From Candidatus Aenigmatarchaeota archaeon (GTDB lineage Archaea; Aenigmatarchaeota; Aenigmatarchaeia; QMZP01; JAFGSV01), in the NCBI GenBank assembly GCA_016934325.1, contig JAFGSV010000028.1, forward strand, positions 556 through 64,555: a stretch of DNA of 64,000 nt, in the 5' to 3' direction. The notes under the pieces were generated by a model. It did no database searches. It saw only the letters and a program-made list of their open reading frames with translations, and was not told the DNA's origin. Each line of letters starts with the position of its first letter. Position 1 is the first letter of the stretch. Below, one piece after another: positions 37,520 to 43,157 of this stretch. A program made the position numbers and the translations under genes.

Positions 37520-38653
37520 ATGTCGTTCTTAACCTTTCCGGAAGGGTTTCCCCATATTCCAGGCCTTGCGAAGGTGCTGGATTCGCTTCTCAATATCACA
37601 TCCGCCAAGAGCGATGAAGCTGATGAGGATCCCGAGCTTAGGTACAAGGTGGAATCCGCCAAGAAGGCCCTGCAGGAAGCGGAGAAGGAGATAGACGAGG
37701 AGGTAGATGCCAGGGAAGCCGCCAAGAAGAAGGCCGAGGAAGAGAAGAGGGGAAGGGAGAGGGCCGAAGAGCTCTCCAGGGTGGAGGATAACAGAAGGGC
37801 AAAGGAAGAGGCCGATGTCGTGGCTCATGATGAGGTCGAAAGGGAGTACGCCAAGGCCGAAAGGGCCAAGCGCGAAGCGGAGCGTCAAAGGATGGCCAGG
37901 GAGGCCGCCATACTGAAAGCCGAGCAAGAGAGGAAGGCCAAGATCGACGCGGAGAAGAAGGCCGAGGAAGAGAAGCTGCTCAAGCGGGACGTCGAACAGA
38001 AGATGATGTCCATGGAGAAGATGGAGCGGCTCGAGCAGGCCGAAAGGGTTGCTAGGGTCGAGGCCCTCATGAGGGAAGAGGAAGAGAAGAAGGCCAAGCT
38101 GGAAGCCCTCAAGGCTTCGAAGATCGAGGCCGCTAGGAAAGCGAAGGAAGCCGCCATGGCAAGGGTGATGCGCGAGAAGAATGCCAGGGAGGAAGCGGAA
38201 CGGCAAGCGGAGTCCGAGAGGGAAGCCAGGAGGGCGGCGGAGAGGGAAGCGATCAGGAAGGCCGTCGAGGAGAGGAAGTCCGCCGAGGAGGAGGCGAGGA
38301 AGCGCAAGCTCAAGGAGGCCAGGAAGGCCAGGGAAGCCGCGGAGAAGATCGCGAAGGAGGAGATGCTTTCCCGGGAGGAGGCCGAAGCCAGGCTCGAGGA
38401 GGAGAAGATGGCCAGGGAGGAGGCCGAGAGGAAGGCCGTTGAGGTTAGGACCCAGAGGGTCATGGCGGAGAAGAAGATCAAGGAAGCCGAGAGGAACCTG
38501 GCAAGGCTCGAAGCGAAGAAGATGGAAGAGGAGGCCAGGCTGCTGAAGAGGAAGAAGTTGCTCGTTATAATGGGGAACCGAAGCAAGCTCACGCCAGAAA
38601 GCATCAGAAAACTGGTGAAGTCGGCAAGAAAGAGGATCTCCAAGAAACGGTGA
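37520..38653 (+). CDS. E/K/R/A-rich long alpha-helical protein
   Basis: Repeated AREEAERKA-like units; core-like codon usage; no Pro in the central region. Confidence 0.75.
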   Translation: MSFLTFPEGFPHIPGLAKVLDSLLNITSAKSDEADEDPELRYKVESAKKALQEAEKEIDEEVDAREAAKKKAEEEKRGRERAEELSRVEDNRRAKEEADVVAHDEVEREYAKAERAKREAERQRMAREAAILKAEQERKAKIDAEKKAEEEKLLKRDVEQKMMSMEKMERLEQAERVARVEALMREEEEKKAKLEALKASKIEAARKAKEAAMARVMREKNAREEAERQAESEREARRAAEREAIRKAVEERKSAEEEARKRKLKEARKAREAAEKIAKEEMLSREEAEARLEEEKMAREEAERKAVEVRTQRVMAEKKIKEAERNLARLEAKKMEEEARLLKRKKLLVIMGNRSKLTPESIRKLVKSARKRISKKR

Positions 38654-38780: not shown

Positions 38781-39371
38781 GTGATGCCCATGGAAGATAA
38801 GAGGCTGCCAGATGTGCTGAAGAAGCTGGCCAGGGGCCCCCAGATAATCACGCTGAAGGACGCCGCGATCATTTCCGCATTCACCGGCATGTCGCCGGGC
38901 GACATCGTCGTGGACGCGGGGTCGGGGTCGGGCTTCCTCGCCATATACATGGGAAACCTGGTGAGGCCTTCGGGAAAGGTGATATCCTATGAAAGGCGCC
39001 CGGACTTCGCGAAGCTCGCGCAAGGGAACGTGAATAAGGCCGGCCTTGAAGGCTACGTGACCATCAAGGAGAAGGACATCTACGAGGGGATTGATGAACA
39101 CGACGTGGATGTCATAACCCTGGACCTGCCGGAGCCTTGGAACGCGGTCGAGCATTCCGTGCGGGCCCTGAAAGACAGGGGCTTCCTGGTGTCTTACGTC
39201 CCGACCGTGGAGCAGGTGAGGCGATTCGCCTCGCAATGCGAAAAATCCGGGCTGAAACACGTGAAGACGGTCGAATGCTGCGTGAGGGAGATGGTCCTGC
39301 ACGAAAGGGGCACCAGGCCCCAGATAAAGGGCATCATGCACACCGGTTACATTACATTCGTCAGGAAGTGA
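38781..39371 (+). CDS. trmI: tRNA (adenine-N1)-methyltransferase TrmI/Trm61
   Basis: RGPQIITLKD, DAGSGSG, LDLPEPW, YVPTVEQV, HTGYI. Confidence 0.92.
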   Translation: MMPMEDKRLPDVLKKLARGPQIITLKDAAIISAFTGMSPGDIVVDAGSGSGFLAIYMGNLVRPSGKVISYERRPDFAKLAQGNVNKAGLEGYVTIKEKDIYEGIDEHDVDVITLDLPEPWNAVEHSVRALKDRGFLVSYVPTVEQVRRFASQCEKSGLKHVKTVECCVREMVLHERGTRPQIKGIMHTGYITFVRK

Positions 39372-40689
39372 TGCCTGTTTCATCCTTCAATTTCTTAACA
39401 AGATTTTCCAGGCCCGCTTTCTTTTCCCTGCCGGTCTTCATCTCTTTCATCGTGAATCTGCCGGTCTTCATCTCATCAGGCCCGACGATCAAAACGAAGG
39501 GTATCTGCCGCCTGTTTGCATAGTCCAGCTGCTTCCTCAGGTCCCTGCCCATCAGGTCCGTTTCCGCGTCCACGCCGCTTGACCTCAGCTTCTGCGCTAT
39601 GACGATCGATTCCCCCCTGACCGCCGCATCATCGTTCACCGAAACCACGAACACGCTGGTCTTCGGCTTGACCTCTGCGAACATGTTCTCCGCGCACATG
39701 ACCTCGAATATCCTCTCTATGCCGAAGGAAATGCCGGTTGCTGGCGTGGGCTTCCCGCCATACATCTCTATGAGGTTGTCGTATCTGCCGCCGCCCGCCA
39801 CCGATCCGACTTGCCGCTTCGCCTTCGCCGAAACCTCGAAGATCGGCCCGGTGTAGTATTCCAGTCCCCTCACGAGGCTCAGGTCTATCTTTATGCATTT
39901 GTCGATCCCGTAGGATTTTGCGATCGTAACTATCTGTTCCAGCCCCCTCGTCCCGTCTTCGGCCGTCCCGATGCCTGCAAGCATCCTCCCTATCCTCGGC
40001 AGGGTCTTCTCGGGAGCCCCGCTGACATCGATGAGCTTCATCAGCTTCGTGACCCTGCCTGCATCGATCCCGCTCCTTTTCAATTCGCCTATTATCTCGC
40101 TCCTGGGCGCCTTGCCCGTCTTGTCCAGGATCCTGAAGACTTCGGGAGCCTTCTTCCCGGGTATGTTGACGGATTCCACCAGGGCGTTAAGTATCTTCCT
40201 GTTGTTGAGCCTGACCTCGAGCTTCCTGAATCCGAGGGCCCTCAAGGCCTCTACTGCGACCGCGATGCATTCCGCATCGGCTTCCATCCCAGCGGTTCCT
40301 ACGATATCCGAGTCTGCCTGGACGAACTCCCTCATGCGTCCGGCCTGCGGCCTGTCGTACCTCCAGACCTTCGATATCTGGTACCTCTTGAATGGGAGCT
40401 GCAGCTGAGGATTGCCGGCTGCGACCCTCGCCAGCGGGACGGTCAGGTCGAACCTGAGCCCGAGCTCCCTGTCCGACTTGTCCTTGAAATAGTAGATCTC
40501 GTCCTTGATCCCCTCCCCGCCGCCTCCCTTCTTCGATAAAAGCTCCCAGGACTCGAATGCGGGCGTGTCCATGGGCCGGAATCCGAACGACTCGAAGACC
40601 CGCCTGAATGTATCCAGTACATACTGGCGCCTGGACATGTCCTCGGGCATGAAGTCCCTCGTCCCCCTCGGCGGCTGGAATTTCGGCAT
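39361..40689 (-). CDS. hisS: Histidyl-tRNA synthetase
   Basis: PRGTRDF, LRFDLTVP, WRYDRPQAGRMREFVQ, LVRGLEYYTG, GGGRYDNL, GISFGIER. Confidence 0.97.
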   Translation of the reverse strand: MPKFQPPRGTRDFMPEDMSRRQYVLDTFRRVFESFGFRPMDTPAFESWELLSKKGGGGEGIKDEIYYFKDKSDRELGLRFDLTVPLARVAAGNPQLQLPFKRYQISKVWRYDRPQAGRMREFVQADSDIVGTAGMEADAECIAVAVEALRALGFRKLEVRLNNRKILNALVESVNIPGKKAPEVFRILDKTGKAPRSEIIGELKRSGIDAGRVTKLMKLIDVSGAPEKTLPRIGRMLAGIGTAEDGTRGLEQIVTIAKSYGIDKCIKIDLSLVRGLEYYTGPIFEVSAKAKRQVGSVAGGGRYDNLIEMYGGKPTPATGISFGIERIFEVMCAENMFAEVKPKTSVFVVSVNDDAAVRGESIVIAQKLRSSGVDAETDLMGRDLRKQLDYANRRQIPFVLIVGPDEMKTGRFTMKEMKTGREKKAGLENLVKKLKDETGITS

Positions 40690-40744
40690 ACCGATCACCT
40701 TTATATTTGTTTTTCGGTGTTTAAGTTCTTACGGACATGCTAGC

Positions 40745-40966
40745 TCAAAGGCAGTCGCGCAATCCGACCACCCTATACACATCTCCGGATTTTATAGGGG
40801 TTCCGTCAACCCTATCAAAACCGACCGTAACATCTGGGTATTCCGGCATGGCGCCGGCAATCCCAAAACACTCTGACATGGTTATGTATCTTCTTTCAAT
40901 CCTGTCGTATCCGACGATTGGGTCATCGGGAGATGCTTCGCGCCTGAAAAGGATATCCTTCCTCAT
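40745..40966 (-). CDS. Hypothetical 73-aa protein
   Basis: Strong GGAGGTGA SD; start overlaps the AbrB stop (ATGA). Confidence 0.6.
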   Translation of the reverse strand: MRKDILFRREASPDDPIVGYDRIERRYITMSECFGIAGAMPEYPDVTVGFDRVDGTPIKSGDVYRVVGLRDCL

Positions 40967-41286
40967 AGTTCACCTCCCTCATCGTTGACAGATGCATCAG
41001 GGTCAGGACCGGGGCTCGAACCCGGCTCAGGAACTCCACGGGCCCCTATGCTAGCCGCTGCACCATCCTGACCACTTTCATCGATAACAAGGATAACAAG
41101 GTTCTTGTCTAGGCTGAATACCATGTCCACTTCAGAGCCGCTGCCAAGGCCGAAGCTCCTTCGGATATCAATGGGGATCAAAAGCCTTCCCTTGGAATCG
41201 AGCTTCGCTTTCCGGGTGAAAATCTCCGCTCTAGAAGCAGGGCTGGGCAAGTCTCCAACACTTCCCCTGCGCGTGAACCGATTCAC
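40963..41286 (-). CDS. AbrB/MazE/SpoVT-family DNA-binding protein whose 3' part reads through a tRNA-like element
   Basis: KLDSKGRLLIPIDIRRSFGLGSGSEV AbrB motif; start codon uncertain. Confidence 0.8.
   Translation of the reverse strand: MNRFTRRGSVGDLPSPASRAEIFTRKAKLDSKGRLLIPIDIRRSFGLGSGSEVDMVFSLDKNLVILVIDESGQDGAAASIGARGVPEPGSSPGPDPDASVNDEGGEL
41001..41073 (-). tRNA. tRNA-His(GTG)-like cloverleaf, degenerate (pseudo-tRNA, mimic or atypical tRNA)
   Basis: G-1 GTCAGGA TG GTGC AGCGGCTA GCAT A GGGGC CCGTGGA GTTCC TGAG CCGGG TTCGAGC CCCGG TCCTGAC C73; G-1:C73 His identity; C at conserved U33. Confidence 0.8.
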
Positions 41287-41485
41287 CCATATTGTTCACC
41301 GATTTGTTATATGATTGGTAATATTTTTAAAAGTTCCGTGGGAAATGGGTTCATCGGCCACATTAGGTCTTTTATCTCTATTGAAAGACAAATTGTGATT
41401 CCTTCATGATTCCTTTATAAGAGTTTTGAACCACTAAAAAGTAGGGAATATTTAAATAACTTTGCTTTCTTATATTATTTTATTA

Positions 41486-41604: not shown

Positions 41605-42399
41605 ATGATAGGTTCGCAGGAAGTACTGGATGCGTTGAAGAACATAGGCCTTAATCTATATGAAAGGAAGATATACGTTGCGCTTCTGGCAAAGGGGGTC
41701 GCGACAGCCGGAGAGGTTTCCGAGATAGCCAAGGTCCCGAGGTCGAGGTCCTATGACGTGCTCGAATCGCTGGCGGACAAGGGCTTCGTGGTTTCGCAGT
41801 CATCCAAGCCCATCAAATACGTCGCCCTTTCTCCGAAGGACGCTCTCTCAAGGGCCAAGGACAACCTCAAGATGAAGCACAACGAGACCGTCGAGAGGAT
41901 GGACAGGCTCATGAAATCGCCGATCGTCAAGGAGCTCGAGTCGATCTACAAGGAAGGCTTCACCATGATCCAGCCCTTCGACATCGCCGGGACGCTCAAG
42001 GGCAGGTACTCCATAAACCAGCAGATAAAGATGCTTCTCAAGAAGGCGAACAATTACATCAATGTCATAACCACCGGCGACGGGCTGAGCGAGCTCTATT
42101 CCAAGCACTTCAACGTCCTCAAGAAGGCCACGAAGTCGGGCGTCCAGCTGAGGATACTGTCCCCGGTCACTGACTCCAAGCCGGCGGGGGCCTTCGCGGA
42201 AATCGGAGAAGTCAGGGGGATGGATAACGCCCTCGGCAGGATATTCACGATCGACGGGGAGCACTTCATGATGGCGCTCACGGACGACAGCAAGGTCCAT
42301 CACACCCAGGACGTGGCTTTCTGGGCCGGTTCCGGCCACGTCGCCAAGGACGTACTCGAGCCGCTGTTCGAGAACGTGTGGACCGCCAACAAGAAGTGA
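41605..42399 (+). CDS. TrmB-family transcription regulator
   Basis: GLNLYERKIYVALL...VPRSRSYDVLESLADKGFV; C-terminal PLD-like sensor domain. Confidence 0.92.
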   Translation: MIGSQEVLDALKNIGLNLYERKIYVALLAKGVATAGEVSEIAKVPRSRSYDVLESLADKGFVVSQSSKPIKYVALSPKDALSRAKDNLKMKHNETVERMDRLMKSPIVKELESIYKEGFTMIQPFDIAGTLKGRYSINQQIKMLLKKANNYINVITTGDGLSELYSKHFNVLKKATKSGVQLRILSPVTDSKPAGAFAEIGEVRGMDNALGRIFTIDGEHFMMALTDDSKVHHTQDVAFWAGSGHVAKDVLEPLFENVWTANKK

Positions 42400-42770: not shown

Positions 42771-43157
42771 TCAAGCCTCTTTCACCAGTATCCTGTTCCC
42801 GATCTTCCAGTAACCGACTTCCTGGCCGGACTGCAGCTTTCCCTTGAACTCGGCCGGGATGCTTGCGTCGAAGGTGCTGTAGTCCTCGAGGTTCATGAGC
42901 TGCACGAAGTCCCCGCTCACCGAAATTACCTGGGCCTTGTTCTTCTCTATTATGGGAACCGTGACGCCAGCGTCCGCCGGCTTGAGCAGGGACCTTTTCC
43001 TGCCGTCGAACAGGCCCAGGGCATCGACCCTCGCCTTTGTCGAGCCGTGCTTCCCGGGCTTGGAGAGCGTTATCTTCAGAACCTTGCACGGCTCGTCGTC
43101 TATCATCACGTAATGGCCTGGCCTGAGGCTCTTTATGCTGCTGTTTTTTGTGGCCAT
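42771..43157 (-). CDS. eif5a: Translation factor aIF5A (eIF5A)
   Basis: SKPGKHGSTK hypusine motif; VQLMNLEDY. Confidence 0.96.
   Translation of the reverse strand: MATKNSSIKSLRPGHYVMIDDEPCKVLKITLSKPGKHGSTKARVDALGLFDGRKRSLLKPADAGVTVPIIEKNKAQVISVSGDFVQLMNLEDYSTFDASIPAEFKGKLQSGQEVGYWKIGNRILVKEA

What the first reader, a model, noticed from the sequence alone, without database searches (positions are those of the whole stretch)
39361..41290. tRNA-His cloverleaf embedded in an AbrB coding frame directly upstream of hisS
Seen: 41073-41001 on the minus strand folds into a full cloverleaf with anticodon GTG and the His-specific G-1:C73 pair. It has C at invariant U33, two G:U pairs in the anticodon stem and no C48. 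It lies on the sense strand inside the AbrB ORF, where it translates as GQDGAAASIGARGVPEPGSSPGPD. That ORF is coupled to a 73-aa gene and followed by co-oriented hisS. So HisRS identity elements are kept while decoding features are eroded. Known precedent for synthetase feedback through tRNA mimicry: the E. coli thrS operator. Inference: a tRNA-mimic mRNA element that binds HisRS or is cut by RNase P/Z to control AbrB/hisS expression, or a dual-coding tRNA gene.
Basis: partly seen in the sequence, partly recalled or inferred. Interest (0 to 1): 0.85.

Follow-up and report, generated by a model that had tools for sequence, protein, structure and literature searches.

The report
tRNA-His gene inside a frameshift-gated gene
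In a group of tiny archaea the histidine tRNA gene sits inside the reading frame of a small regulator gene that ribosomes apparently enter only by slipping one base at a histidine codon, which looks like a new way for a cell to sense and correct a shortage of histidine tRNA.

Summary
A full tRNA-His(GUG) with G-1:C73 and C33 lies at 41073-41001 (-) inside an AbrB-domain ORF. That ORF is ATGA-coupled to a 73-aa ORF, and hisS follows.

The "eroded tRNA mimic" reading is not supported. Orthologues in Ca. Aenigmatarchaeota are normal, covarying tRNA-His genes: U33 in at least 61 of 65 and G-1 in 65 of 65. In one complete chromosome the embedded copy is the only tRNA-His found.

The "dual-coding" alternative is strongly supported.
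- In 53 of 54 genomes the AbrB ORF reads through the whole tRNA gene.
- It also reads through all 11 intron-like inserts, whose lengths are all multiples of 3.

New here: the AbrB frame is reached from a short SD+ATG upstream ORF only by a +1 shift at a histidine codon.
- The site is an SD-like GGTGA, then 3 nt, then GTT/CTT/CCC, then CAY. It occurs once or twice in tandem, resembling prfB.
- The same cassette precedes hisG and a hisZ-like gene in relatives.

Best reading: a His-tRNA-sensing programmed +1 frameshift gates translation through the cell's own tRNA-His gene into the hisS operon. All evidence is comparative; there is no RNA or protein data.

The parts
41321..41343 (-). Promoter-like element: TCCCACGG, 3 nt, then a T/A-rich TATA-like box (TTTTAAAAATAT), about 30 nt upstream of the leader ATG.
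   Evidence: Sequence. A CCCAC..TTWAWA motif is found by a strict pattern 150-330 nt upstream of the tRNA in 27 of 50 related loci and is visible in the upstream prints. Promoter function is inferred.
41296..41300 (-). Shine-Dalgarno GGTGA, 5 nt before the leader ATG.
   Evidence: SD-like 5-mers are enriched before first ATGs of long ORFs in this genome: 83 of 566 against 32 of 566 in control windows, with spacing peaking at 5-7 nt.
41231..41290 (-). Leader ORF (0 frame), 19 codons plus TAG: MGESVHAQGKCWRLAQPCF*.
   Evidence: Translation. An equivalent SD/ATG leader with a His codon is present in 30 of 30 loci of the order, and in 51 of 54 embedded loci by the script (52 counting G178, found).
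41273..41287 (-). Putative +1 frameshift cassette: internal SD-like GGTGAA (41287-41282), spacer TCG, P-site codon GTT (41278-41276), A-site His codon CAC (41275-41273).
   Evidence: Among 75 sites in 51 loci the P codon is GTT 52, CTT 11, TTT 4, CCC 3, TCC 2, CGG 2, TTC 1. The 6 nt before the spacer codon are mostly GGTGAA/GGTGAT/GGTGGT/AGTGAT/GGAGG-like. Frameshifting itself is inferred.
40963..41277 (-). AbrB reading frame (+1 relative to the leader), open from TTC at 41277 to TGA at 40965-40963. It contains the AbrB domain (about 41208-41092) and then the whole tRNA-His.
   Evidence: Translation. Domain support: PF04014 and a profile hit to the AbrB N-domain structure 1z0r at E 9.7e-8. AlphaFold2 gives pLDDT 81-89 for the domain and 47-67 with no secondary structure for the tRNA-encoded tail.
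41001..41073 (-). tRNA-His(GUG) gene, from G-1 to discriminator C73. It carries C33 and has no encoded CCA (CC then T).
   Evidence: Only tRNA-His found in this 78.9%-complete assembly.
40745..40966 (-). 73-aa ORF whose ATG overlaps the AbrB-frame stop (ATGA at 40966-40963). Lineage-specific small protein with no Pfam match.
   Evidence: Similar only to the G002 and G087 counterparts.
39361..40689 (-). hisS (class II histidyl-tRNA synthetase with anticodon-binding domain). It has its own SD GGTGA, and its ATG is at 40689.
   Evidence: PF13393 at E 2.5e-53 and PF03129 at E 4.7e-16. hisS lies downstream on the same strand in 30 of 50 related loci within the DNA fetched.
41605..42399 (+). Divergently transcribed TrmB-family regulator (context only).
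   Evidence: PF01978 at E 1.7e-21. The same neighbour is seen in G002 and G003.

Best explanation
This is the working tRNA-His gene of a Ca. Aenigmatarchaeota archaeon. It lies in one transcription unit with, and inside the reading frame of, a small AbrB-domain gene at the head of the hisS operon.

Proposed mechanism:
- Ribosomes start at an SD-led ATG (41290) and read a short leader.
- At GGTGAA-TCG-GTT-CAC the internal SD-like sequence holds the ribosome while the A site waits for His-tRNA(His).
- If that tRNA is plentiful, CAC is decoded and translation stops 14 codons later.
- If it is scarce, the P-site tRNA-Val slips +1 (GUU to UUC) and the ribosome enters the AbrB frame.
- It then translates the AbrB domain, runs through the entire tRNA-His sequence, and stops at an ATGA that hands over to the next gene. 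hisS follows.

The cassette would therefore sense His-tRNA(His) supply. It would turn that signal into synthesis of a DNA-binding regulator and into ribosome traffic across the tRNA-His/hisS transcript.

What is shown (comparative):
- The tRNA is genuine.
- The ORF across it is kept open by selection.
- The AbrB frame is always +1 of a His codon in an SD-led leader.

What is inferred:
- That frameshifting occurs and responds to His-tRNA.
- That the tRNA is made from the operon transcript by RNase P/Z.
- What ribosome passage does. My preferred guess is that it protects or antiterminates the transcript so that more tRNA-His precursor and hisS mRNA are made. Blocking tRNA folding and processing is the alternative.
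For: Genuine tRNA:
- 98.3% of cells paired, 14 of 22 pairs with double-sided changes, 0 of 500 shuffles as good, G-1:C73 in 21 of 21.
- G-1 in 65 of 65.
- Sole tRNA-His in the complete genome G068.

ORF continuity is selected:
- 50 of 50 loci plus 3 of 4 further loci read through the whole tRNA gene.
- Intron-like inserts of 15, 15, 18, 36, 36, 36, 39, 45, 63, 48 and 48 nt, plus a 3-nt D-loop insert, are all in frame and free of stops.
- Four 73-nt tRNAs are compensated by +1 nt in the linker.
- There are 13 distinct distances from the AbrB motif to the tRNA.
- Embedded tRNAs lack the T-run found after 7 of 11 stand-alone tRNA-His genes of the same order.
- TATA-like hexamers are not enriched before the embedded tRNA.

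Frameshift:
- 30 of 30 loci of the order have an ATG leader whose His codon is followed by the AbrB frame in +1.
- Across the class, one search finds 27 single-site and 24 double-site loci among 54. One search adds G178 as a further double-site locus.
- Tandem sites are spaced 16, 16, 31, 25 and 28 nt, all 1 mod 3 (read, confirmed).
- In 17 of 30 loci the AbrB frame is closed by TAG immediately before the site.
- At least six loci have no ATG/GTG/TTG in the AbrB frame before the domain: G002, G081, G090, G021 (read from the codon print), and G036 and G089 (one search lists no in-frame start for them).
- TAG is an ordinary stop in this genome (222 of 1008 long ORFs).
- Val at the P site is GTT in 52 of 52 sites, although GTT is only 16.5% of Val codons.
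- An SD-like hexamer sits one codon upstream of the P codon.

Histidine link:
- The same cassette precedes the next gene in 19 of 50 loci.
- Of 10 such genes tested, 5 are HisG and 1 is a HisRS-core (HisZ-like) protein.
- hisS is downstream in 30 of 50 loci. In G173 AbrB, tRNA and HisRS form one 527-aa ORF.
- There are 0 His among 2397 AbrB-domain residues, against a background of 2.16%.
Against: - There is no direct evidence. No RNA holder of this stretch was available, and there are no protein data.
- In this window itself an in-frame GTG (41286) lies 4 nt after the leader ATG and could start AbrB without any shift. The same holds for several relatives.
- The script allows shifts only at His codons, so 'always His' is partly built in. 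The independent support is the conserved sequence context and the narrow window in which both frames are open.
- GUU to UUC re-pairing leaves a first-position mismatch for tRNA-Val.
- One locus (G142) ends the ORF inside the 3' part of the tRNA. G331 shows no leader path.
- The three genomes of genus g22 keep the AbrB gene, leader and hisS but have the tRNA elsewhere. The tRNA is therefore not essential to the module.
- The genomes are related, so counts overstate independence.
- The zero-His count may simply be a family trait.
- Why translation through the tRNA would help is unexplained by data.
Confidence: 0.62

Rival explanations
1. Passive overlap. A normal tRNA-His gene merely abuts a small AbrB gene. 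The ORF runs on through the tRNA because that frame of a conserved G+C-rich tRNA has no stop codons. Nothing is selected, and AbrB starts at a conventional in-frame codon (GTG 41286 here).
For: - In G000, 14 of 20 other tRNAs have at least one sense frame open right through them, and 3 lie in frames of 100 aa or more.
- Stand-alone tRNA-His genes are also open in the same frame.
- An in-frame GTG/TTG start exists in G000 and several relatives.
- The tRNA-encoded tail is predicted to be disordered.
Against: - 53 of 54 ORFs stay open through the tRNA.
- All 11 intron-like inserts are multiples of 3 and free of stops.
- 1-nt changes in tRNA length are compensated in the linker.
- The other two frames hit stops 7-24 nt into the tRNA, yet are used only with compensation.
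- At least six loci lack any in-frame start, and 17 of 30 have TAG right before the site.
- Embedded copies have no T-run terminator.
Confidence: 0.08
2. Leader-peptide control without frameshifting. The short His-containing ORF is a regulatory uORF. Ribosome stalling at CAY alters initiation at a nearby AbrB start, or alters transcript fate, as in bacterial his attenuation. AbrB is made from its own non-canonical or internal start.
For: - The SD/ATG leader with a His codon is conserved.
- It is linked to hisG, a hisZ-like gene and hisS.
- In-frame starts exist in some loci.
Against: This reading does not explain:
- why the AbrB frame is always exactly +1 of the His codon and open from that point;
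- why tandem sites are always 1 mod 3 apart, with the middle frame open between them;
- why the Val codon is always GTT;
- why an SD-like element sits one codon before the P codon;
- how AbrB starts in loci with no ATG/GTG/TTG.
Confidence: 0.17
3. The embedded cloverleaf is a tRNA-like operator in the mRNA. HisRS binds it, or RNase P/Z cuts it, to feed back on abrB/hisS expression, in analogy to the E. coli thrS operator. Its decoding features (C33) are eroded.
For: - His identity elements G-1:C73 and the GUG anticodon are invariant.
- hisS is linked.
- C33 occurs in G000 and recurs in G042 and G184.
- Excision of the tRNA must cut the mRNA. This is an inference from the absence of an own promoter signal.
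Against: - Orthologues are canonical, covarying tRNAs with U33.
- The embedded gene is the only tRNA-His in a complete chromosome, so it is a tRNA gene first.
- A mimic would not need in-frame introns.
- HisRS binding was not tested.
Confidence: 0.08
4. Artefact or remnant. Assembly or sequencing errors create the apparent frames and C33, or the locus is an att-site or mobile-element scar at a tRNA gene.
For: - G000 is a 35-contig MAG at 78.9% completeness.
- tRNA genes are common integration sites (general knowledge).
Against: - An independent contig of the likely source run gives the same sequence.
- The same architecture appears in more than 50 MAGs, including a closed chromosome.
- Synteny with hisS is conserved.
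- No integrase or repeat signature was seen in the ORF lists.
Confidence: 0.02

Closest known systems
E. coli prfB (RF2) programmed +1 frameshift
   Same: - An internal SD-like sequence sits one codon upstream of a slippery NUU-type P-site codon (CUU there; GUU/CUU/UUU/CCC here).
- The shift is promoted by a slowly decoded A-site codon.
- The slow step reports the abundance of the factor that the system controls, giving an autoregulatory loop.
- The 0 frame ends soon after the site.
The prfB details are recalled.
   Different: - The A-site codon is a sense codon (His CAY), not UGA. The sensed molecule would be an aminoacyl-tRNA, not a release factor.
- The site lies in a short leader, not inside the regulated protein, and is often duplicated in tandem.
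- It occurs in archaea.
- The gated ORF contains a tRNA gene.
Yeast Ty1/Ty3, ABP140 and EST3 'hungry codon' +1 frameshifts
   Same: +1 shifting depends on low availability of the tRNA for the A-site sense codon, with P-site slippage (Ty1 CUU-AGG-C). This is recalled; the review PMC8211752 (passages read) describes 'hungry' frameshifting in general.
   Different: In those cases the hungry codon is a constitutively rare codon that sets a fixed ratio. Here the codon is for the tRNA and amino acid whose genes are being controlled, which implies feedback.
Bacterial his operon leader-peptide attenuation and T-box control of hisS
   Same: A short leader ORF with His codon(s) placed ahead of hisG and hisS-type genes, reading out His-tRNA(His) supply (linkage).
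   Different: - One His codon per site rather than a run of seven.
- No terminator/antiterminator hairpins were identified.
- The read-out is a change of reading frame.
- No tRNA-binding riboswitch is present.
tRNA-mRNA co-transcripts (E. coli tufB operon, plant dicistronic tRNA-mRNA, mitochondrial tRNA punctuation) and tmRNA
   Same: tRNA and coding sequence lie on one transcript, and RNase P/Z processing separates them. This is recalled; a plant example appeared in the search listing only.
   Different: In those cases the tRNA lies between or beside ORFs and is not translated. Here the whole tRNA, introns included, lies inside a conserved ORF whose continuity is maintained.
E. coli thrS operator (tRNA-mimic feedback)
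   Different: The thrS operator is a mimic of the anticodon arm in the 5' UTR that blocks initiation. Here the element is a complete, functional, excisable tRNA gene within an ORF.

Membership tests
tRNA (Rfam RF00005), isoacceptor His | Cloverleaf that scores above the family cut-off. | tested here: met
   40.1 bits against a cut-off of 29. The default filters miss it in larger searches. Orthologues score 54-93 bits with a lineage model.
tRNA (Rfam RF00005), isoacceptor His | Base pairs maintained by compensatory change across relatives. | tested here: met
   98.3% of cells paired, 14 of 22 pairs with changes on both sides, 0 of 500 shuffles as high.
tRNA (Rfam RF00005), isoacceptor His | His identity set: G-1 opposite C73, and anticodon GUG. 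| tested here: met
   G-1:C73 in 21 of 21. G-1 in 65 of 65. GTG anticodon.
tRNA (Rfam RF00005), isoacceptor His | Universal U33. | tested here: not met
   G000 has C33, reproduced in an independent contig. Relatives: U33 in 61 of 64 scored; C33 also in G042 and G184. Consequences for decoding were not tested.
tRNA (Rfam RF00005), isoacceptor His | Is aminoacylated and used in translation. | not testable with these tools
   Inferred only, from its being the sole tRNA-His detected.
AbrB/SpoVT/MazE swapped-hairpin DNA-binding domain (PF04014) | Sequence match to the family profile. | tested here: met
   The whole ORF scores 24.0 bits, just under the 24.7 cut-off. The domain alone scores 26.1 bits, and 26 of 27 orthologues match.
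AbrB/SpoVT/MazE swapped-hairpin DNA-binding domain (PF04014) | Similarity to solved AbrB N-domains. | tested here: met
   Profile against PDB: 1z0r at E 9.7e-8, SpoVT 2ro5 at E 2.2e-6. The AlphaFold2 model has pLDDT 81-89 over the domain. No fold search was run.
AbrB/SpoVT/MazE swapped-hairpin DNA-binding domain (PF04014) | Binds DNA or acts as a regulator. | not testable with these tools
   No data.
prfB-type programmed +1 ribosomal frameshift | Two overlapping frames, with the product frame +1 of the initiating frame and the 0 frame ending soon after. | tested here: met
   30 of 30 loci in the order. 51 of 54 in the class by script, plus G178.
prfB-type programmed +1 ribosomal frameshift | Slippery P-site codon with a better or equal +1 pairing option. 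| tested here: inconclusive
   P codons are GTT 52, CTT 11, TTT 4, CCC 3, TCC 2, TTC 1, CGG 2. CTT, TTT and CCC can re-pair fully. GTT leaves one mismatch and CGG does not fit. The pairing rules are recalled, not computed.
prfB-type programmed +1 ribosomal frameshift | Internal SD-like stimulator a fixed short distance upstream. | tested here: met
   The hexamer ending 3 nt before the P codon is GGTGAA (21), AGTGAT (6), AGTGGT, GGTGAG, GGTGGT (5 each) and similar, among 75 sites. SD use in this genome is shown. The 16S 3' end is absent from the assembly.
prfB-type programmed +1 ribosomal frameshift | A trans-frame protein is actually made. | not testable with these tools
   No proteomic or reporter data.
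Leader-peptide attenuation (his-operon type) | Leader ORF enriched in codons of the regulating amino acid. | tested here: inconclusive
   One His codon per site, with one or two sites. There is no run of His codons.
Leader-peptide attenuation (his-operon type) | Alternative terminator/antiterminator RNA structures after the leader. | not tested
   Not examined. The AbrB coding sequence follows directly.
thrS-type tRNA-mimic translational operator | The element is a mimic, not a functional tRNA, and overlaps the ribosome-binding site of the synthetase gene. | tested here: not met
   It is a complete covarying tRNA located 311 nt upstream of hisS, with another ORF between them.
Class II histidyl-tRNA synthetase (downstream gene) | Catalytic core plus anticodon-binding domain. 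| tested here: met
   PF13393 at E 2.5e-53 and PF03129 at E 4.7e-16.

The most novel reading that the evidence does not exclude
Aenigmatarchaeota run a histidine-supply regulon on a recoding device not described before.
- A prfB-like +1 frameshift cassette has a His codon as its 'hungry' A-site codon, used singly or in tandem.
- It gates translation of hisG, a hisZ-like gene and an AbrB regulator.
- The AbrB-frame ORF is deliberately threaded through the cell's only tRNA-His gene, introns included.
- Ribosome traffic would therefore decide whether the transcript serves as mRNA for the hisS operon or as tRNA-His precursor.

If true, this would be the first conserved cellular +1 programmed frameshift in Archaea. 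It would be the first aminoacyl-tRNA sensor built on frameshifting. It would also be the first tRNA gene shown to be under simultaneous selection as RNA and as open reading frame.
Probability: 0.5. Interest if true: 0.95.

Novelty: categorically new. Interest (0 to 1): 0.9.

Why it matters
Translational control
- How archaea match tRNA and synthetase supply to demand is largely unknown. T-boxes and classical attenuators are bacterial.
- A frameshift that reads the availability of one aminoacyl-tRNA would be a compact, portable sensor. It would extend the prfB/antizyme logic to sense codons.
- The 2021 review PMC8211752 (passages read) lists only one proven case of programmed frameshifting in Archaea (-1, fucA1) and only putative +1 cases.

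Genome architecture
- A tRNA gene whose exons and introns must also stay an open reading frame is a new kind of dual constraint.
- It gives a direct handle on the interplay between translation, tRNA processing and possibly transcription polarity in archaea.

Genome annotation
- Gene callers will mis-annotate these loci by splitting or dropping AbrB, hisG and hisZ.
- Infernal's default filters missed this tRNA-His, so such genomes can wrongly appear to lack tRNA-His.

Tried and rejected
- TAG read as a sense codon (which would allow in-frame GTG/ATG starts). Rejected: TAG ends 222 of 1008 long ORFs, and read-on frequency after TAG (42 of 222) resembles TGA (92 of 573) and TAA (31 of 213).
- GTGAA..TTCAC palindrome as an operator. 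It is seen in family f1 only and is not general. It is better explained as SD-like plus GTT-CAC.
- Own promoter for the embedded tRNA. TATA-like hexamers are not enriched at -40..-21 (9 hits in 50 loci, like other windows).
- Word-indexed protein search with the 107-aa ORF.
- Genome-wide scan of G000 for further cassettes. There were 36 loose matches, and only the AbrB locus had the canonical SD-ATG leader.
- Other tRNAs of G000 inside long frames (tRNA-Pro in 275 aa, and two others). The tRNA lies upstream of the real start or in noise, with no domain before it.
- One conserved family for the small gene after AbrB. Rejected: only G000, G002 and G087 are alike.
- 16S rRNA 3' end to confirm the anti-SD. 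It is not in the assembly.
- RNA evidence. No RNA holder is listed, and two metatranscriptome runs of the same study laid nothing on the stretch. This says nothing about expression.
- Earlier notes of this scan. Nothing to show.
- Literature. Five full-text searches found no paper on a tRNA gene inside a translated ORF in archaea, on an AbrB-tRNA-His-hisS unit, or on a His-codon frameshift sensor. Papers outside the held library may exist. Supplements were not consulted.
- 'HisG-like' label for the 112-aa G003 fragment. It has no Pfam hit. The label was confirmed on the longer orthologues.

Full report
1. What is at the coordinates

On the minus strand, ARAGORN finds tRNA-His(GUG) at 41000..41072. 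The features below are read from the sequence.
- G-1 (41073) pairs with C73 (41001).
- The acceptor stem is GUCAGGA/UCCUGAC, and U8, A14, G18G19 and the T-loop UUCGAGC are canonical.
- The anticodon loop is CCGUGGA, so position 33 is C.
- The anticodon stem GGGGC/GUUCC has two G:U pairs, and the variable loop has 4 nt.

Rfam's tRNA model gives 40.1 bits (cut-off 29) when only 171 nt are searched. The hit is lost by the speed filters in the 5-kb, 64-kb and whole-genome scans. The other tRNAs of the genome that pass the cut-off score 30.7-74.6 bits.

The tRNA lies on the sense strand inside ORF 40963..41286, which has these properties.
- Its N-terminal part is an AbrB/MazE-type domain.
- Its stop overlaps the ATG of a 73-aa ORF as ATGA.
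- hisS follows on the same strand.

The genome is a 1.24-Mb, 35-contig MAG, 78.9% complete. Related records are titled Candidatus Aenigmatarchaeota. No other tRNA-His is detected in it.

A contig built independently from the probable source run reproduces 40600-41400 without a difference at depth about 10. C33 is therefore not an assembler slip, but this is not an independent sample.

2. Is the tRNA a real tRNA?

Relatives carry an orthologue at the same place. Twenty-one intron-less copies were aligned and tested against the cloverleaf.
- 98.3% of cells are paired.
- 14 of 22 pairs have changes on both sides.
- 0 of 500 shuffles reach the observed values.
- G-1:C73 is invariant.

Across 65 tRNA-His loci, G-1 is G in 65 of 65. 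Nucleotide 33 is U in 61 of the 64 loops the script scored (G001 is also U by eye). It is C only in G000, G042 and G184. The 4-nt variable loop is shared by all.

In the closed chromosome G068 (CP070801.1 by its title) the next-best matches of the tRNA-His model are tRNA-Arg and tRNA-Asp. The embedded, intron-bearing copy is therefore the only tRNA-His found there.

This is a working tRNA gene, not an eroded mimic. C33 in this MAG is a rare recurrent variant whose effect I cannot judge.

3. Is the ORF across it more than chance?

In G000 alone it is not. Fourteen of 20 other tRNAs have a sense frame open right through, and 3 lie in stop-to-stop frames of 100 aa or more. None of those has a protein domain upstream.

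Comparison changes the picture. A six-frame search with an AbrB-plus-tail alignment found full-length, stop-free matches in the order (91 genomes). It also found them in other orders of the class (371 genomes searched in the phylum, 66 with E at most 1e-10).

I examined 65 tRNA-His loci. These were chosen through the AbrB search and the 30 best tRNA-model hits, so they are not a random sample.
- Fifty have the AbrB motif upstream in an ORF entering the tRNA, and 50 of 50 read through the entire gene.
- Four more were resolved by eye. G257 and G097 read through. G058 reads through although its AbrB domain is degenerate. G142 stops in the 3' part of a 72-nt tRNA hit.
- The total is 53 of 54.

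Three lines of evidence show that the frame is maintained.
- Ten genomes carry intron-like inserts, mostly after T-loop position 58, two in the D-loop, and one also at 37/38. Their lengths are 15, 15, 18, 36, 36, 36, 39, 45, 63 and 48+48 nt, all multiples of three and all free of in-frame stops. There is also a 3-nt D-loop insert. Two T-loop inserts fold as an extended helix with a 3-nt bulge, compatible with a relaxed bulge-helix-bulge. Splicing is inferred.
- Four tRNAs are 1 nt shorter, and exactly these have 1 extra nt in the linker (distances 118 and 121 against 117 and 120).
- The AbrB-motif-to-tRNA distance takes 13 values. The two other frames would stop 7-24 nt into the tRNA, yet they never end the ORF.

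Embedded copies are followed by coding sequence. By contrast, 7 of the 11 stand-alone tRNA-His genes of the same order are followed by a T-run. TATA-like hexamers are not enriched before the embedded tRNA. It is therefore probably transcribed from the operon promoter and cut out (inference).

4. How the AbrB frame is reached

I printed the DNA upstream of 30 loci. It showed a conserved promoter-like CCCAC..TTTAAATA, then an SD (GGTGA) and an ATG that is not in the AbrB frame.

That ATG opens a short ORF containing a conserved x-Val-His, and the AbrB frame is +1 of it. In G000 the elements are as follows.
- SD at 41300-41296 and ATG at 41290.
- Leader MGESVHAQGKCWRLAQPCF*.
- Cassette GGTGAA-TCG-GTT-CAC at 41287-41273.
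- AbrB frame open from TTC at 41277.

All 30 loci of the order fit: 20 with one site and 10 with two tandem sites.

In other orders most loci have two sites. Over 54 embedded loci the script finds 27 single and 24 double.
- G178 is also double.
- G331 shows none.
- G097 is cut by the contig end.
- For G068 the script picked a spurious path; the canonical one is.

Arguments that this is a programmed +1 frameshift rather than coincidence:
- In 17 of 30 loci the AbrB frame is closed by TAG immediately before the site. In G087 the 0 frame stops immediately after CAC. The window in which the shift can occur therefore narrows to the codon pair GTT-CAY.
- At least six loci have no ATG, GTG or TTG in the AbrB frame before the domain (G002, G081, G090, G021, G036, G089).
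- Tandem sites are 16, 16, 31, 25 and 28 nt apart, always 1 mod 3, with the intermediate frame open between them.
- The P-site codon is GTT in 52 of 52 Val sites, although GTT is only 16.5% of Val codons in G000. Otherwise it is CTT (11), TTT (4), CCC (3), TCC (2), TTC (1) or CGG (2). Most of these allow re-pairing one base downstream with the C of the His codon (pairing rules recalled).
- An SD-like hexamer ends one codon before the P codon. This is the arrangement known from prfB (recalled). G000 uses SD sequences.
- TAG is a normal stop here, which removes the alternative of a TAG-containing in-frame start.

Caveat: the script lets frames change only at His codons, so the invariance of His is partly by construction. 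The conserved context and the narrow overlap window are the independent evidence.

5. The histidine connection

- hisS lies downstream on the same strand in 30 of 50 loci within the 0.4-1.5 kb fetched. In seven loci it begins 42-110 nt after the tRNA. In G173 AbrB, tRNA and HisRS form one 527-aa ORF.
- In 16 of 50 loci the stop of the AbrB ORF overlaps an ATG (start at -1).
- In 19 of 50 loci the next gene starts with the same cassette.
- Of ten such genes tested against Pfam, five are HisG (ATP phosphoribosyltransferase). One is a HisRS core without anticodon-binding domain (HisZ-like). The rest are an Asp/Glu racemase, a GNAT, a methyltransferase and a nucleotidyltransferase.
- The AbrB-domain regions contain 0 His in 2397 residues, against 2.16% in long ORFs of G000. 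The sequences are related, so this is only suggestive.
- The three genomes of genus g22 keep the leader, AbrB and hisS but have tRNA-His elsewhere with its own TATA-like box. The sensor-AbrB-hisS unit is therefore the core, and the tRNA is a frequent but not obligatory passenger.

6. Mechanism proposed

When His-tRNA(His) is ample the leader is read through CAY and terminated. When it is scarce the paused ribosome, held by the internal SD-like sequence, shifts +1. It then makes the AbrB protein, traverses the tRNA sequence and hands over to the next cistron.

Two consequences are plausible, and neither has been tested.
- AbrB is a starvation-induced regulator.
- Ribosome passage keeps the long transcript intact or prevents premature termination. 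More tRNA-His precursor and hisS (and hisG) mRNA would then be made. This would explain why the ORF must stay open through the tRNA and its introns up to the next start codon.

The opposite effect, ribosomes hindering tRNA folding and excision, is equally conceivable.

The tRNA-encoded tail itself is predicted to be disordered (pLDDT 47-67, no secondary structure). This argues that the act of translation matters, not the peptide.

7. Comparison and novelty

The cassette works like prfB, with a sense codon as sensor, and like Ty1-type hungry-codon shifts. Its logic matches his-leader attenuation and T-box control.

It is not a thrS-type mimic (see the membership table).

Five full-text searches found nothing on such an arrangement. 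The review PMC8211752 (passages read) states that only one -1 frameshift is established in Archaea, and that +1 cases are only suggested for a haloarchaeal virus and for Mg chelatase.

I therefore rate the tRNA-in-ORF plus His-sensing frameshift as categorically new. The warning stands that everything rests on comparative sequence analysis of related MAGs.

8. Verdict

My confidence:
- about 0.9 that the ORF across a genuine tRNA-His is maintained by selection;
- about 0.75 that a +1 frameshift at the His codon is the route into it;
- about 0.5 for the proposed physiological role.

Noticed in passing
L008 (G003) 1060-1412; L026, L107, L087, L015, L029; L097: The gene after the AbrB-tRNA ORF often begins with the same SD/ATG/x-Val-His cassette, with its coding frame at +1. 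Pfam identifies HisG in five such genes and a HisRS-core (HisZ-like) protein in one. This suggests a small histidine regulon run by the cassette.
   Followed up: partly
L096 (G173), L029 (G036), L078: In G173 the AbrB ORF runs through the tRNA straight into HisRS, giving one 527-aa frame. In G036 it runs into an Asp/Glu-racemase-like protein (336 aa). In L078 it runs on into a long protein that looked HisG-like by eye (not tested).
   Followed up: partly
L062 (G058) about 620-1070: The leader, the cassette and an 89-aa ORF through the tRNA are kept, although the AbrB domain is no longer recognisable. This hints that translation across the tRNA, rather than AbrB itself, is the conserved requirement.
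   Followed up: no
window 41001-41072: Infernal/Rfam with default or 'permissive' filters misses this tRNA-His in 5-kb, 64-kb and whole-genome scans, although it scores 40.1 bits. Genomes of this group may be wrongly reported as lacking tRNA-His.
   Followed up: yes
window 42771-43157 (-): aIF5A gene (PF21485 at E 1.4e-15; PF01287), about 1.5 kb from the cassette. eIF5A affects +1 frameshifting in yeast Ty1 according to one paper title and abstract in a search listing. The proximity may be coincidence.
   Followed up: no
window 38781-39371 (+): A GCD14/TrmI-type tRNA methyltransferase (PF08704 at E 6e-28) lies convergent to the 3' end of hisS.
   Followed up: no
window 37520-38653 (+): A 377-aa, extremely Glu/Lys/Ala/Arg-rich ORF with no Pfam match. 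It is probably a coiled-coil protein. The opposite strand shows long spurious ORFs.
   Followed up: no
L114 (G041) 1557-1672; L115 (G035) about 1400-1556: In genus g22 the stand-alone tRNA-His also carries intron-like inserts (T-loop in G041, a long D-arm insert in G035). The tRNA-His inserts are therefore not peculiar to the embedded state.
   Followed up: no
G000 contigs C23:16952-17060, C7:11361-11464, C31:432-538, C27:96122-96241 and others: Many tRNA genes of this genome are 100-120 nt long in the Rfam scan and are missed by ARAGORN without intron mode. Non-canonical introns seem common in this lineage.
   Followed up: no
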